A stretch of 64,000 nt of DNA from Escherichia coli. GTDB taxonomy: Bacteria > Pseudomonadota > Gammaproteobacteria > Enterobacterales > Enterobacteriaceae. Location: assembly GCF_003334385.1 (NCBI RefSeq), contig NZ_QOWN01000017.1. The stretch is one strand, 5' to 3'. A program made the position numbers. Shown here one piece after another: positions 15,701-21,700 of the stretch. Position 1 is the first letter of the stretch. Every line of letters starts with the position of its first letter.

Positions 15701-18700
15701 GATGGCAAGCCGGAAACGGTGCTGTATGCGGAAAAACGTTATTACAACACTGCCGGGTCGATGATGACCGAAGCGGCAATTGACGGCGGCATCACGCGTG
15801 ACCTGTACGCGGCCCTCGGTGAAGAGCTGGAAAACGGCGCGTGGGCCGTGCGTCTTTACTACAAACCATTTGTTCGCTGGATTTGGGCGGGCGGGCTGAT
15901 GATGGCGTTGGGCGGACTGCTGTGTCTGTTTGATCCTCGCTATCGTAAGCGCGTGAGTCCGCAAAAAACTGCGCCGGAGGCCGTATGAAGCGCAAAGTAT
16001 TGTTAATTCCGTTGATTATCTTCCTGGCGATTGCCGCGGCGCTGCTGTGGCAGCTGGCGCGTAATGCCGAAGGGGATGATCCGACCAATCTGGAATCGGC
16101 GCTCATTGGCAAGCCTGTGCCGAAGTTTCGTCTCGAATCACTGGACAATCCGGGGCAGTTTTATCAGGCGGATGTGCTGACTCAGGGCAAACCAGTACTG
16201 CTTAACGTCTGGGCGACCTGGTGTCCGACCTGCCGTGCGGAACATCAATATCTGAATCAGCTTTCTGCGCAGGGCATCCGCGTGGTCGGCATGAACTATA
16301 AAGACGATCGCCAGAAGGCAATCAGCTGGCTGAAAGAGCTGGGCAATCCTTACGCGCTAAGTCTGTTTGATGGCGATGGCATGTTAGGGCTGGATCTCGG
16401 TGTCTATGGCGCGCCAGAAACGTTTCTTATTGACGGCAACGGCATCATTCGCTATCGCCATGCGGGCGATCTGAATCCTCGCGTCTGGGAAGAAGAGATC
16501 AAGCCGCTGTGGGAGAAATACAGTAAGGAGGCCGCACAATGAGGTTTTTATTGGGCGTGCTGATGCTGATGATCTCCGGCTCAGCGCTGGCGACCATCGA
16601 TGTGTTGCAGTTTAAAGATGAAGCACAGGAACAACAGTTCCGTCAGCTCACTGAAGAACTGCGCTGCCCGAAATGCCAGAACAACAGCATTGCCGATTCC
16701 AACTCGATGATTGCCACCGACCTGCGTCAGAAAGTGTATGAACTGATGCAGGAAGGTAAAAGTAAAAAAGAGATTGTCGATTATATGGTGGCGCGTTACG
16801 GCAACTTCGTCACTTACGATCCGCCGTTAACGCCGCTGACCGTGCTGCTGTGGGTGCTGCCAGTAGTGGCTATTGGCATTGGCGGTTGGGTCATATACGC
16901 CCGCTCGCGGCGTCGGGTACGCGTGGTGCCGGAAGCGTTTCCTGAACAAAGCGTGCCGGAAGGTAAGCGTGCCGGATATGTTGTTTATCTGCCGGGTATT
17001 GTGGTGGCGTTAATTGTGGCTGGCGTCAGCTACTACCAGACTGGCAATTATCAGCAGGTGAAAATCTGGCAGCAGGCCACGGCACAGGCTCCGGCGTTGC
17101 TGGACAGGGCGCTGGATCCGAAAGCCGATCCGCTCAACGAAGAAGAGATGTCGCGTCTTGCGCTGGGGATGCGTACTCAACTGCAAAAAAATCCGGGAGA
17201 TATAGAAGGCTGGATTATGTTGGGCCGCGTTGGCATGGCGCTGGGTAACGCCAGTATCGCCACCGATGCATACGCCACTGCGTATCGCCTCGATCCGAAA
17301 AACAGTGATGCTGCACTGGGATACGCTGAAGCGTTGACTCGTTCATCTGATCCCAACGACAACCGCCTCGGCGGTGAACTGCTACGTCAGCTGGTGAGAA
17401 CGGACCATAGCAATATCCGTGTGCTAAGCATGTATGCGTTTAATGCCTTTGAGCAGCAGCGATTTGGCGAAGCCGTTGCCGCGTGGGAGATGATGTTGAA
17501 ACTCTTACCTGCCAACGATACTCGCCGTGCGGTGATTGAACGTAGTATCGCGCAGGCGATGCAACATTTGTCGCCGCAGGAGAGTAAATAAAAAGAGGCC
17601 CGATGGTGATGCCATCGGGCTAGACTGTTGACAAAGTGCGCTTAGTTTATGCCGGATGCGGCGTGAACGCCTTATCCGGCCTACAAAATTGTGTAAATTC
17701 AATAAATTGATCGATCCACGTAGGCCTGATAAGCGTAGCGCATCAGGCAGTTTTGCGTTTGTCATAAATCTCAGCCCGATGATAAATCCATCGGGCTATT
17801 TTTATTGTGCCCCGCGTTGTTGCAGGAACAGAATGGTGGCCGCCACGCGTGAGCGGACATTGAGTTTACGCAGCAGATTGCGAATATGTACTTTTACTGT
17901 CTGCTCGGAAATATTCAACACCGAGGCAATCTGTTTATTTGACAGCCCCTGTGCCAGCTCGTGCAGAACATCCAGCTCGCGCTCCGTCAGCACGCTGAAG
18001 GGATCTTCTTCCGCGCCAAACATTTCACGTTCACGTAAGTACTGATTGACGCGTTCGCTAAAGACTTTGCTGCCTTTCGCTCCGGCACGAATCGCTTCCA
18101 GCAATACTTCCGGGTCGCTGTCTTTCAACAGATAACCGTCTGCGCCTGCGTCTATCAGCGCAAAGACATCGCTGGAGGCATCGGATACGGTCAGGATAAT
18201 AATTTGCGCGGTAACGCCATCCCTGCGCAAGGCATTGAGAGTATCCAGGCCACTCATACCTTTCATATTGAGATCCAGCAAGATCACGTCGATATCCAGT
18301 CTATTCGCCAGATCGATAGCGCTCGCGCCGTCGCCCGCTTCGGCGACCACTTCAAAGCCAGGATCAAGCTCCAGTAACTGACGAACACCGCGTCGCATAA
18401 GTGGATGATCATCCACAATCATCACCTGAAAAGGCGTTGCTTCAGGCATAGTAGTCTCCTGAGGTTTTATTAGAATCATTATGTTTGAGCGTAGCGTTGG
18501 TAACGCTACCAGGCGCGTGAATGTTACCCCATTTTATGTATGGACATGTAGTGAAAACTACAACCTTGTCGTTCGCTTTGGCATCATTTTCATTATAAAG
18601 ACGGAATTTTGCATCAGCTTCTCATCAAGAAAAACAACTAAAAAATCAATCACAATACTTGTGCATTTCTTTAAACAGTTTTTAAAAACTGACTCCGGGT

Positions 18701-21700
18701 ATGGAGCTATGGGTATTTTCTGTACCCAATGATTTTAACAGCAATTAATTTCATAGGATGAAAGCTCAATGCATCAATCTGGTTCTGTTTCTCTTTGTCG
18801 TTCCGCAATATCTGTTCTGGTGGCTACAGCGTTATATTCACCCATAGCATTGGCATCAACTGTTGAGTATGGTGAGACAGTTGATGGTGTTGTCCTGGAA
18901 AAAGATATCCAGCTGGTTTATGGGACCGCCAATAATACGAAAATCAATCCTGGCGGAGAACAGCATATAAAAGAATTTGGTGTAAGTAATAATACTGAAA
19001 TTAACGGAGGGTATCAGTACATTGAAATGAATGGCGCCGCAGAATACTCAGTATTAAATGACGGTTATCAAATTGTTCAAATGGGTGGCGCGGCAAACCA
19101 GACTACGCTCAATAATGGTGTGCTACAGGTTTATGGCGCAGCGAATGATACCACGATTAAAGGCGGGCGCTTAATCGTTGAAAAAGATGGGGGGGCCGTC
19201 TTTGTCGCTATCGAAAAGGGAGGACTACTGGAGGTTAAAGAGGGGGGATTTGCATTTGCGGTAGATCAGAAAGCAGGCGGTGCTATTAAAACAACCACGC
19301 GGGCCATGGAGGTATTCGGAACAAACCGTCTCGGTCAGTTCGATATCAAGAATGGTATTGCTAATAATATGTTGTTGGAAAACGGCGGAAGTTTGCGAGT
19401 TGAAGAAAATGACTTCGCTTATAATACCACTGTAGATAGTGGCGGCTTACTGGAGGTTATGGATGGCGGGACTGTAACTGGCGTTGATAAAAAAGCAGGC
19501 GGAAAATTAATTGTCTCAACGAATGCGCTGGAAGTGAGTGGTCCAAACAGTAAAGGCCAATTTAGTATAAAAGATGGTGTGTCAAAAAATTATGAACTGG
19601 ATGATGGTTCCGGGCTCATTGTTATGGAGGACACGCAGGCCATTGATACTATCCTTGATAAGCATGCCACTATGCAATCGCTGGGAAAGGATACTGGTAC
19701 GAAAGTGCAGGCAAATGCGGTATATGATCTCGGTCGATCATATCAGAATGGAAGTATCACGTATTCCTCAAAAGCCATCTCTGAAAATATGGTTATCAAC
19801 AATGGCCGCGCTAACGTCTGGGCTGGCACAATGGTTAACGTTTCAGTCAGAGGGAATGATGGCATTCTTGAGGTCATGAAGCCGCAAATAAATTATGCAC
19901 CCGCAATGTTGGTGGGTAAGGTAGTGGTTTCTGAGGGCGCTTCTTTTAGAACGCATGGTGCCGTGGATACCAGCAAAGCGGACGTTTCGCTCGAAAATAG
20001 CGTATGGACCATCATTACCGATATCACTACGACGAACCAAAACACCCTCCTCAACTTAGCCAACCTTGCGATGTCTGACGCAAATGTGATTATGATGGAT
20101 GAGCCAGTGACTCGTTCATCAGTGATGGCAAGTGCGGAAAATTTCATTACGTTGACCACCAATACCCTGTCGGGAAACGGCAATTTTTATATGCGTACCG
20201 ATATGGCTAATCATCAGAGCGATCAGCTCAACGTCACCGGTCAGGCAACAGGTGATTTCAAAATATTCGTGACGGACACCGGTGCCAGCCCGGCAGCAGG
20301 AGATAGCCTTACACTGGTAACAACGGGCGGCGGTGATGCTGCATTTACGTTGGGCAATGCCGGAGGCGTTGTTGATATCGGTACGTATGAATATACCTTG
20401 CTGGATAATGGCAACCATAGCTGGAGTCTGGCAGAGAATCGCGCGCAAATTACCCCTTCAACCACTGATGTGCTGAATATGGCGGCCGCACAACCGCTGG
20501 TATTTGATGCAGAACTGGACACCGTGCGTGAGCGTCTTGGTAGCGTAAAAGGCGTTAGTTACGATACGGCGATGTGGAGTTCGGCAATTAACACCCGCAA
20601 CAACGTGACCACTGATGCGGGAGCTGGTTTTGAGCAAACATTGACGGGCCTGACGCTCGGTATCGATAGCCGTTTCTCCCGTGAAGAAAGCAGTACAATT
20701 CGCGGCTTGATCTTTGGTTACTCTCATTCTGATATTGGTTTTGATCGCGGCGGCAAAGGTAATATCGATAGCTATACCCTGGGGGCTTATGCCGGTTGGG
20801 AGCATCAGAACGGTGCCTATGTTGATGGGGTGGTGAAAGTTGACCGTTTTGCCAACACCATCCATGGCAAGATGAGTAATGGGGCAACAGCGTTTGGCGA
20901 TTACAATAGTAACGGCGCGGGTGCTCATGTTGAGAGCGGGTTCCGTTGGGTTGACGGATTGTGGAGTGTTAGACCCTATCTGGCCTTTACCGGCTTTACC
21001 ACAGATGGTCAGGACTACACGTTATCAAACGGCATGCGCGCGGATGTGGGAAATACCCGGATATTACGCGCTGAAGCGGGAACGGCGGTAAGCTATCACA
21101 TGGACCTGCAAAACGGTACGACGCTGGAACCCTGGCTGAAAGCGGCCGTGCGTCAGGAATACGCCGATTCTAACCAGGTGAAAGTTAATGACGATGGCAA
21201 ATTTAATAATGATGTGGCTGGAACCAGTGGCGTTTATCAGGCTGGTATAAGGTCATCGTTTACCCCGACGTTAAGCGGTCATTTGTCAGTCAGCTATGGC
21301 AATGGCGCAGGGGTAGAATCGCCGTGGAATACTCAGGCGGGTGTGGTCTGGACGTTCTGATAACAGAAAATAAACAGGCTGTGATGTGTCACGGTCTGTT
21401 TATCGAATTAATTGCAGATATAAAAAAACCAACCGTAAGGGTTGGTTTTTTCTTGGGATTTTTGGTCGGCACGAGAGGATTTGAACCTCCGACCCCCGAC
21501 ACCCCATGACGGTGCGCTACCAGGCTGCGCTACGTGCCGACTCGTGGCTGCTAATACTACCGTTTTCCACACCGATTGCAAGTAAGATATTTCGCTAACT
21601 GATTTATAATTAATCAGTTAGCGATAAAACGCTTCTCGTCTGTCAGCACTTGCAATAACAAACTTAACTGTGGTTTTTCATCTTTCACTCTTTCACCACG

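What the first reader, a model, noticed from the sequence alone, without database searches (positions are those of the whole stretch)
18450..21360. Compact narP-yejO interval with no insertion sequence and an intact 863-aa autotransporter
The narP-yejO intergenic region is 319 bp, AT-rich, with no transposase ORF or terminal inverted repeats. From memory, K-12 MG1655 carries an IS5 copy in this neighbourhood and yejO is often annotated as disrupted; I am not certain of this. Here yejO is a complete ORF with signal peptide, passenger and beta-barrel, sitting next to the proL tRNA. The window may therefore come from a non-K-12 lineage with a potentially functional YejO adhesin.
Basis: partly seen in the sequence, partly recalled or inferred. 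Interest (0 to 1): 0.25.

Follow-up and report, generated by a model that had tools for sequence, protein, structure and literature searches.

The report
Intact yejO autotransporter, no K-12 IS5
This stretch is the ordinary, uninterrupted form of the E. coli yejO surface-protein gene, found in about 93% of complete E. coli genomes; laboratory K-12 is the exception, with an IS5 element inserted in it, which is already documented.

Summary
narP (17802-18449, minus strand) and yejO (18769-21360, plus strand, 863 aa) are separated by exactly 319 bp at 36% GC. There is no IS, and tRNA-Pro(GGG) lies 102 bp downstream.

MG1655 carries the 1195-bp IS5K inside yejO, after nucleotide 67, in the signal-peptide codons. 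It is flanked by a TTAT duplication that corresponds to window 18832-18835. It is not in the intergenic spacer, so K-12's narP-to-yejO-start spacer is also 319 bp, with one SNP.

The empty site occurs in 5050 of 5426 complete E. coli genomes. The K-12 IS5 junction occurs in 357, and all 60 of those listed are K-12 laboratory derivatives.

The window is collinear with MG1655 at 99.8-99.95% identity. It is a close phylogroup-A-like relative, not K-12.

The exact protein is already in NCBI as "autotransporter YejO". It has all the parts of an AIDA-I/Ag43-type type Va autotransporter. Its dN/dS is 0.2-0.4, with the barrel more constrained than the passenger.

This is ordinary and already known, so interest is low.

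The parts
17802..18449 (-). narP, the nitrate/nitrite response regulator (215 aa), transcribed divergently from yejO
   Evidence: ORF, sequence. Same coordinates and product in the RefSeq annotation of aligned strains. dN/dS against four strains is 0.04 or less.
18450..18768 (.). 319-bp AT-rich divergent intergenic spacer, presumed to hold the narP and yejO promoters. It contains no IS and no annotated gene.
   Evidence: 36.1% GC. No sigma-70 consensus hit in the simple scan. No NarP 7-2-7 site at 2 or fewer mismatches, although the known napF site at 5323-5338 was found. Length is 319 bp in K-12 and in all ten other strains fetched. The mechanical 83-aa ORF at 18481-18732 is not annotated in any RefSeq record examined.
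18769..21360 (+). yejO, an intact 863-aa type Va (classical) autotransporter of the AIDA-I/Ag43-like kind. By eye, the signal peptide is about aa 1-29. The passenger has AIDA repeats (about aa 50-315) and a pertactin-like domain (aa 431-555). The beta-barrel is aa 602-841, and the protein ends in ...VVWTF.
   Evidence: Translation. Pfam. NCBIfam TIGR01414 autotrans_barl, 369 bits. PDB sequence matches to Ag43, the AidA-I family, TibA, Vag8, BrkA and pertactin. The exact sequence is in NCBI as 'autotransporter YejO'.
18832..18835 (+). TTAT, the unoccupied target site that is duplicated on either side of IS5K in K-12. The insertion point is between 18835 and 18836, within codon 23 in the signal peptide.
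   Evidence: Local alignment of the window with K-12 C3026, and the junction sequences. MG1655 feature table: IS5K at 2288919-2290113, yejO fragment 1 of 67 nt.
21361..21462 (.). 102-bp yejO-proL spacer, unoccupied here. One close relative carries an IS4 at this position.
   Evidence: IS4 in strain SY033.
21463..21539 (-). proL, tRNA-Pro(GGG). No island or prophage is integrated next to it in this window.
   Evidence: ARAGORN, Rfam RF00005. Some other strains lose the match within the tRNA (H27-H29). Phage integration at this tRNA in Shigella flexneri 1c is described in PMC4924310.

Best explanation
The region is the ancestral, uninterrupted narP-yejO-proL locus of E. coli, from a strain closely related to K-12 but not K-12. 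yejO encodes a complete classical (type Va) autotransporter of the AIDA-I/Ag43-like class.

Inferred mechanism, from established knowledge of type Va secretion and not tested here:
1. The N-terminal signal peptide sends the protein through Sec.
2. The C-terminal 12-stranded beta-barrel is inserted into the outer membrane by BAM.
3. The repeat-rich beta-helical passenger is translocated and displayed on the cell surface, with the pertactin-like region helping it fold. There it probably acts as an adhesin or aggregation factor.

In K-12 the gene was inactivated by one event. IS5K inserted after nucleotide 67, splitting the signal peptide and duplicating TTAT. No other lesion exists in the K-12 copy. 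The 319-bp AT-rich spacer is the normal divergent promoter region and is the same length in every strain examined.
For: - The window is collinear with MG1655 2308759-2243757 at 99.8-99.95% identity.
- K-12 junctions are ...GCGTTAT|GGAAGGTGCGAA...TTCGCACCTTCC|TTATATTC. That is a 1195-bp IS5 with a 4-bp duplication of window 18832-18835. The MG1655 feature table agrees, and so does the literature (PMC11005336; PMC11677980).
- Removing IS5 and one TTAT from K-12 restores an 863-aa ORF that differs from the window protein only at T417A and M453T.
- The empty site is present in 5050 of 5426 complete genomes. The IS5 junction is present in 357, and all 60 listed are K-12 laboratory derivatives.
- At least 80% of the 3.8-kb locus is present in 4280 of 5426 genomes.
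- The domain architecture is complete.
- The exact protein is already deposited under the name YejO, in a 90%-identity cluster of 16,859 members.
- yejO dN/dS is 0.20-0.41. The barrel is at 0.09-0.16 and the passenger at 0.23-0.64, the pattern expected of a working autotransporter.
Against: - No experiment on intact YejO was found in the searchable literature, so adhesin activity rests on homology alone.
- The protein scores far below the curated cut-offs for the Ag43 model (140 vs 1200 bits) and the AIDA-I model (73.5 vs 1200 bits).
- The gene has been lost repeatedly. K-12 has the IS5, UTI89 and RM14723 have two deletions, PapM-36-2 has a nonsense codon at 789, and GYX208DH4E-2 has an in-frame 222-bp deletion.
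- Its dN/dS is 5-10 times that of its neighbours. Selection on it is weak or conditional.
- No consensus promoter was found in the spacer.
- In K-12, the yejO fragment downstream of IS5 (MG1655 2286390-2288914) is among the least often detected transcripts (PMC10392735). Expression of the intact allele is unknown.
- The signal peptide was judged by eye.
Confidence: 0.93

Rival explanations
1. The window comes from a K-12 derivative in which IS5 was lost by precise excision or engineered removal (for example an IS-free laboratory strain), not from a natural non-K-12 lineage.
For: The locus is 99.9% identical to K-12 on both sides of the insertion point. Precise deletion of IS5 and one TTAT would give exactly this structure. 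IS5 deletion mutants of BW25113 at yejO have been built (PMC11677980).
Against: The window differs from MG1655 by about 64 substitutions over 64 kb, including 6 within 6.8 kb around yejO. It has one extra 113-bp REP325/naRNA4 unit. It starts inside an IS186/IS421-type element that splits alkB. None of the records carrying that junction is named as K-12, and only 5 natural isolates share it. Natural isolates match better than K-12: strain 23CRST014 is listed at 100.0% over 77-25000.
Confidence: 0.02
2. yejO here is an intact but non-functional ORF: a silenced or decaying gene that has not yet picked up a disabling mutation in this lineage.
For: The gene has been inactivated independently in several lineages. 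dN/dS is raised relative to neighbouring genes, reaching 0.64 in the passenger for one pair. The upstream region is AT-rich with no consensus promoter. Wells et al. 2010, as cited in PMC3426408, report that YejO is truncated in all UPEC genomes compared.
Against: dN/dS is clearly below 1, and the barrel is much more constrained than the passenger. Of the 40 records listed, 26 carry a single-piece full-length match annotated as yejO, in lineages about 2% diverged; at least one of these (PapM-36-2) is itself a nonsense pseudogene. The ORF was checked directly in only four divergent strains, and three are intact at 863 aa: O157:H7 AC-5, MS14384 and Z226-1. Locus coverage in 4280 of 5426 genomes does not itself show intact ORFs.
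Confidence: 0.3

Closest known systems
E. coli YejO (b2190 in K-12; RefSeq 'autotransporter YejO', e.g. WP_000554226.1)
   Same: It is the same gene at the same locus, between narP and proL. The exact amino-acid sequence is already in NCBI under this name. It is 863 aa, like the RefSeq proteins.
   Different: Compared with the K-12 reference copy, it lacks the IS5K insertion and the 4-bp duplication. It differs at two residues (417 T vs A, 453 M vs T) and by one SNP in the spacer.
Ag43 / AIDA-I / TibA self-associating autotransporters (SAAT group of type Va)
   Same: The passenger has AIDA-type repeats (Pfam PF16168, two strong copies). It matches the Ag43, AidA-I family and TibA passenger structures at E values of 1e-36 to 4e-28. 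It also has a pertactin-like domain and a 12-strand-type barrel domain.
   Different: It is well below the NCBIfam equivalog cut-offs for Ag43 (140 vs 1200 bits) and AIDA-I (73.5 vs 1200 bits). It is shorter than the model lengths (863 aa against 948 for Ag43 and 1287 for AIDA-I). No neighbouring heptosyltransferase (aah/tibC-like) gene is present: the flanks are narP and proL. Self-association has not been tested.
IS5 insertional pseudogenes of K-12 (for example wbbL::IS5, nmpC::IS5)
   Same: The K-12 allele of this locus is one of the 11 IS5 copies of BW25113. The IS5 lies in the same orientation as the target gene (PMC11677980).
   Different: The window carries the unoccupied site. The target TTAT departs from the CTAA/CTAG sites mentioned in that paper.

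Membership tests
Type Va (classical) autotransporter | C-terminal autotransporter beta-barrel domain | tested here: met
   Pfam PF03797 at aa 602-841, E 8.8e-45. TIGR01414 at 369.5 bits against a cut-off of 16. BrkA barrel structure 3qq2 matched over 582-863.
Type Va (classical) autotransporter | N-terminal Sec signal peptide | tested here: inconclusive
   By eye, a positively charged n-region (R11), a hydrophobic stretch SAISVLVATALYSPIALA and an A-L-A|S cleavage motif at 27-29. No signal-peptide predictor was available.
Type Va (classical) autotransporter | Beta-helical passenger with a junction or autochaperone region before the barrel | tested here: met
   AIDA repeats at 184-245 and 257-315, plus weaker copies. 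Pertactin domain PF03212 at 431-555, E 2.2e-45. Matches to pertactin and Ag43 structures. No 3-D model was made.
Type Va (classical) autotransporter | Surface display of the passenger | not testable with these tools
   Needs experiment.
YejO orthologue group (E. coli) | Position between narP and proL, with near-identity to annotated YejO | tested here: met
   Synteny ccmH-narP-yejO-proL-yejM matches RefSeq records. Exact sequence named YejO in NCBI.
Ag43/Cah family adhesin (NF033177) | Score above the curated equivalog cut-off | tested here: not met
   140.2 bits against a cut-off of 1200. It is a relative, not a member.
AIDA-I adhesin (NF033176) | Score above the curated cut-off | tested here: not met
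   73.5 bits against a cut-off of 1200.
AIDA-I adhesin (NF033176) | Adjacent heptosyltransferase gene | tested here: not met
   narP lies upstream and proL downstream. There is no aah-like gene.
IS5 insertion at yejO (K-12 marker) | 1195-bp IS5 with GGAAGGTGCGAA ends and a TTAT duplication at window 18835/18836 | tested here: not met
   The window is continuous across the site. No IS5 end occurs anywhere in the window.

The most novel reading that the evidence does not exclude
Intact YejO may be a working, conditionally expressed self-associating adhesin of commensal and diarrhoeagenic E. coli. Its repeated loss (K-12 IS5, B2/UPEC-type deletions, a nonsense allele) would then reflect selection against it in particular niches rather than neutral decay. 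This window would supply a ready intact allele that differs from K-12's by two residues.
Probability: 0.35. Interest if true: 0.25.

Novelty: already known. Interest (0 to 1): 0.06.

Why it matters
It matters little beyond bookkeeping. The finding shows that the window is a wild-type-like relative of K-12 and not the laboratory strain. It also corrects the mental picture of the K-12 lesion: IS5 is in the signal-peptide codons of yejO, not in the intergenic spacer.

There is one practical point. K-12's yejO has no lesion other than IS5, and the intact allele here differs by only two residues. Anyone wishing to test YejO function could therefore use this allele, or excise IS5 from K-12. I found no functional study of the intact protein in the searchable literature.

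Tried and rejected
- Searched for IS remnants in the spacer. There are no IS5 ends in the window, and only one chance-level 11-nt inverted repeat and one 12-nt direct repeat. Rejected.
- Looked for a hidden gene or RNA in the spacer. Rfam at gathering thresholds finds nothing between narP and proL except the tRNA. The 83-aa ORF at 18481-18732 is unannotated in every RefSeq record fetched. Rejected as spurious.
- Looked for promoters and NarP sites in the spacer. The sigma-70 scan gave 0 hits against 1.7 expected. The 7-2-7 NarP pattern hit only the napF control region at 5323-5338 and one other place at chance frequency. Nothing can be concluded about regulation.
- Two terminator-like hairpins (18692-18707 on the minus strand, 18710-18728 on the plus strand) were reported against 0.2 expected. 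They have weak stems in AT-rich DNA and were not pursued.
- Considered an IS-cured K-12 origin. Rejected on SNPs, the REP325 copy number and the alkB IS.
- Did not run the large protein-database searches, structure prediction or fold search. Identity to a named, deposited protein and the clear Pfam, NCBIfam and PDB matches made them unnecessary.
- Literature searches for YejO function (yejO with autotransporter, H-NS, adhesin, biofilm) returned no functional characterisation.
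Full report
**Observation**

The mechanical ORF list and the raw sequence show narP on the minus strand, ending at its ATG at 18449. The listed ORF extends to 18479, but the 215-aa start at 18449 is the one annotated in every aligned RefSeq record. A single uninterrupted plus-strand ORF runs from 18769 to 21360 and encodes 863 aa. The interval 18450-18768 is therefore exactly 319 bp.

The spacer is 36.1% GC against 51.7% for the window. Only 0.44% of 319-bp windows are as AT-rich. It contains no transposase ORF. No IS5 terminal repeat occurs anywhere in the 64 kb. 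The repeat search finds only an 11-nt imperfect inverted pair and a 12-nt direct pair, which are unremarkable. tRNA-Pro(GGG) lies at 21463-21539 on the minus strand, 102 bp beyond the yejO stop.

**What the gene is**

- Pfam finds AIDA passenger repeats (two strong copies at 184-245 and 257-315, and weaker ones nearer the N-terminus). It also finds a pertactin domain at 431-555 and the autotransporter beta-domain at 602-841.
- NCBIfam gives the generic autotransporter barrel model at 369 bits. It gives only sub-threshold similarity to the Ag43 model (140 vs 1200 bits) and the AIDA-I model (73.5 vs 1200 bits).
- Sequence search of the PDB finds Ag43, AidA-I family and TibA passengers (E 1e-36 to 4e-28) for the N-terminal half. 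It finds Vag8, BrkA and pertactin for the C-terminal half.
- By eye, the N-terminus is a standard Sec signal peptide (...SPIALA|STVEY). The protein ends in Phe, as outer-membrane barrels usually do.
- The exact 863-aa sequence is already in NCBI as "autotransporter YejO [Escherichia coli]". It sits in a 90%-identity cluster of 16,859 members.

So this is YejO, a classical type Va autotransporter of the AIDA-I/Ag43-like kind. It is not a member of either of those specific families. The secretion mechanism (Sec export, BAM-assisted barrel insertion, passenger display) is inferred from the family and was not tested.

**Comparison with K-12**

The 64-kb window is collinear with MG1655 2308759-2243757 (reverse strand) at 99.8-99.95% identity. 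In MG1655 the feature table lists the following:

| Feature | MG1655 coordinates |
|---|---|
| yejO (b2190), two-piece pseudogene | 2286390-2290180 |
| yejO fragment 1 (67 nt) | 2290114-2290180 |
| IS5K (with insH8) | 2288919-2290113 |
| yejO fragment 2 | 2286390-2288914 |
| narP start | 2290500 |

My alignment of the window with K-12 C3026 gives the junctions ...GCGTTAT|GGAAGGTGCGAA... and ...TTCGCACCTTCC|TTATATTC.... This is a 1195-bp IS5 flanked by a 4-bp duplication, TTAT, which corresponds to window 18832-18835. The insertion therefore lies inside yejO, after nucleotide 67 and within the signal-peptide codons. It is in the same orientation as yejO. [quoted passage not shown]

Consequently K-12's distance from narP to the yejO start codon is also 319 bp, with a single SNP. 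The same interval is 319 bp in all ten other strains I fetched. These are H7, SY033, UTI89, RM14723, GYX208DH4E-2, O157:H7 AC-5, MS14384, PapM-36-2 and Z226-1, plus K-12 C3026 counted separately from MG1655.

It implicitly misplaced the element in the intergenic region. The "compact spacer" distinguishes nothing. If IS5 and one TTAT copy are removed in silico, K-12 yejO is a clean 863-aa ORF that differs from the window's at T417A and M453T. IS5 is K-12's only lesion.

**Population context**

- A 100-bp probe across the unoccupied site is matched over at least 80% of its length in 5050 of 5426 complete E. coli genomes.
- The K-12 yejO/IS5 junction is matched in 357 genomes. All 60 listed are K-12 laboratory derivatives, such as MG1655, DH5alpha, DH1, C600, J53, RR1, NCM3722 and HST04. 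The other 297 were not inspected.
- At least 80% of the 3.8-kb narP-yejO-proL stretch is present in 4280 of 5426 genomes.
- Most of the remainder carry deletion alleles. UTI89 and RM14723 lack about 1.0-1.15 kb of the passenger and about 630 bp of the barrel, and are annotated as pseudogenes. GYX208DH4E-2 has an in-frame 222-bp deletion giving 789 aa. PapM-36-2 has a nonsense codon at 789.
- This matches the statement, attributed to Wells et al. 2010 in PMC3426408, that YejO is present in commensal and diarrhoeagenic genomes and truncated in UPEC. It also matches the reported absence of yejO from ST131 (PMC5654935).

The intact allele in the window is thus the common ancestral state.

**Is it likely to be functional?**

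Nei-Gojobori estimates against four strains about 2% diverged give the following:

| Gene or region | dN/dS |
|---|---|
| yejO, whole gene | 0.20-0.41 |
| yejO passenger | 0.23-0.64 |
| yejO linker and barrel | 0.09-0.16 |
| ccmH, narP, yejM | 0.06 or less |

This indicates purifying selection with the domain pattern expected of a real autotransporter. The constraint is much weaker than on the neighbouring housekeeping genes. Together with the repeated independent losses, it suggests a dispensable or niche-dependent surface protein.

I found no functional study of intact YejO in the searchable literature. In K-12 the downstream yejO fragment is among the least often detected transcripts (PMC10392735), but that copy sits behind IS5. 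The simple promoter scan found nothing in the spacer. No NarP 7-2-7 site is present there, although the known napF site at 5323-5338 was recovered as a control. Regulation remains unknown.

**Strain identity**

The window is not K-12. Besides lacking IS5, it differs in three ways:
- It has about 64 substitutions relative to MG1655.
- It has one more 113-bp REP325/naRNA4 unit.
- It begins with 76 bp that do not match MG1655 alkB. In strain SCU-104, which matches from position 1, an IS421-family (IS4-like) transposase gene splits alkB at this point. I recognised the 76 bp from memory as an IS186-type terminal repeat. This junction occurs in only 5 of 5426 genomes.

Natural isolates match better than K-12. 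Strain 23CRST014 is listed at 100.0% identity over 77-25000. An IS-cured K-12 origin is therefore rejected.

**Verdict**

Everything here is already annotated and published, so the finding is ordinary and interest is low.

Noticed in passing
window 1-76 (junction at 76/77): The first 76 bases do not match MG1655 alkB. They look like the outer end of an IS186/IS421-type element inserted in alkB, which leaves only the 3' remnant of alkB from 77 onward. In strain SCU-104 an IS421-family transposase gene splits alkB at this point. Only 5 of 5426 complete E. coli genomes share the junction. The strain may therefore lack AlkB DNA-demethylase activity.
   Followed up: partly
window 3769-4529, minus strand: There is a tandem array of 7 naRNA4 (REP325/CssrE) units between mqo and eco. 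It has one more 113-bp unit than MG1655.
   Followed up: partly
window 17623-17773: The ccmH-narP spacer holds a REP/BIME-like block of about 151 bp (palindromic GCCGGATG...CATCCGGC-type units). It is present here and in K-12. It is absent from UTI89, RM14723 and GYX208DH4E-2. The four strains fetched have only a 34-35 bp ccmH-narP gap, against 210 bp here.
   Followed up: partly
window 18692-18728: Two adjacent terminator-like hairpins lie about 40-75 bp upstream of the yejO start codon, one on each strand (2 found against 0.2 expected in shuffles). They have weak stems in AT-rich DNA, and their significance is unknown.
   Followed up: no
window 21361-21539 and related loci L002, H27-H29: The yejO-proL interval and proL itself are insertion-prone in other strains. 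SY033 has an IS4 between yejO and proL. Several STEC or bovine strains lose the match within the tRNA. A phage remnant sits at this tRNA in Shigella flexneri 1c (PMC4924310). Both sites are empty in this window.
   Followed up: partly
L012 (PapM-36-2) yejO codon 789; L007/L008 (UTI89, RM14723); L009 (GYX208DH4E-2): yejO has been inactivated or shortened by independent routes: a nonsense codon, two large deletions, and an in-frame 222-bp repeat-mediated deletion.
   Followed up: partly
window 50403-51662 and 53593-54852: These two stretches are about 79% identical paralogues, corresponding to nupX and psuT in MG1655. This is an ordinary gene duplication.
   Followed up: no
window 25255-25280, minus strand: There is an Rfam match to the ribosomal protein L25 leader upstream of rplY. 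This is expected.
   Followed up: no
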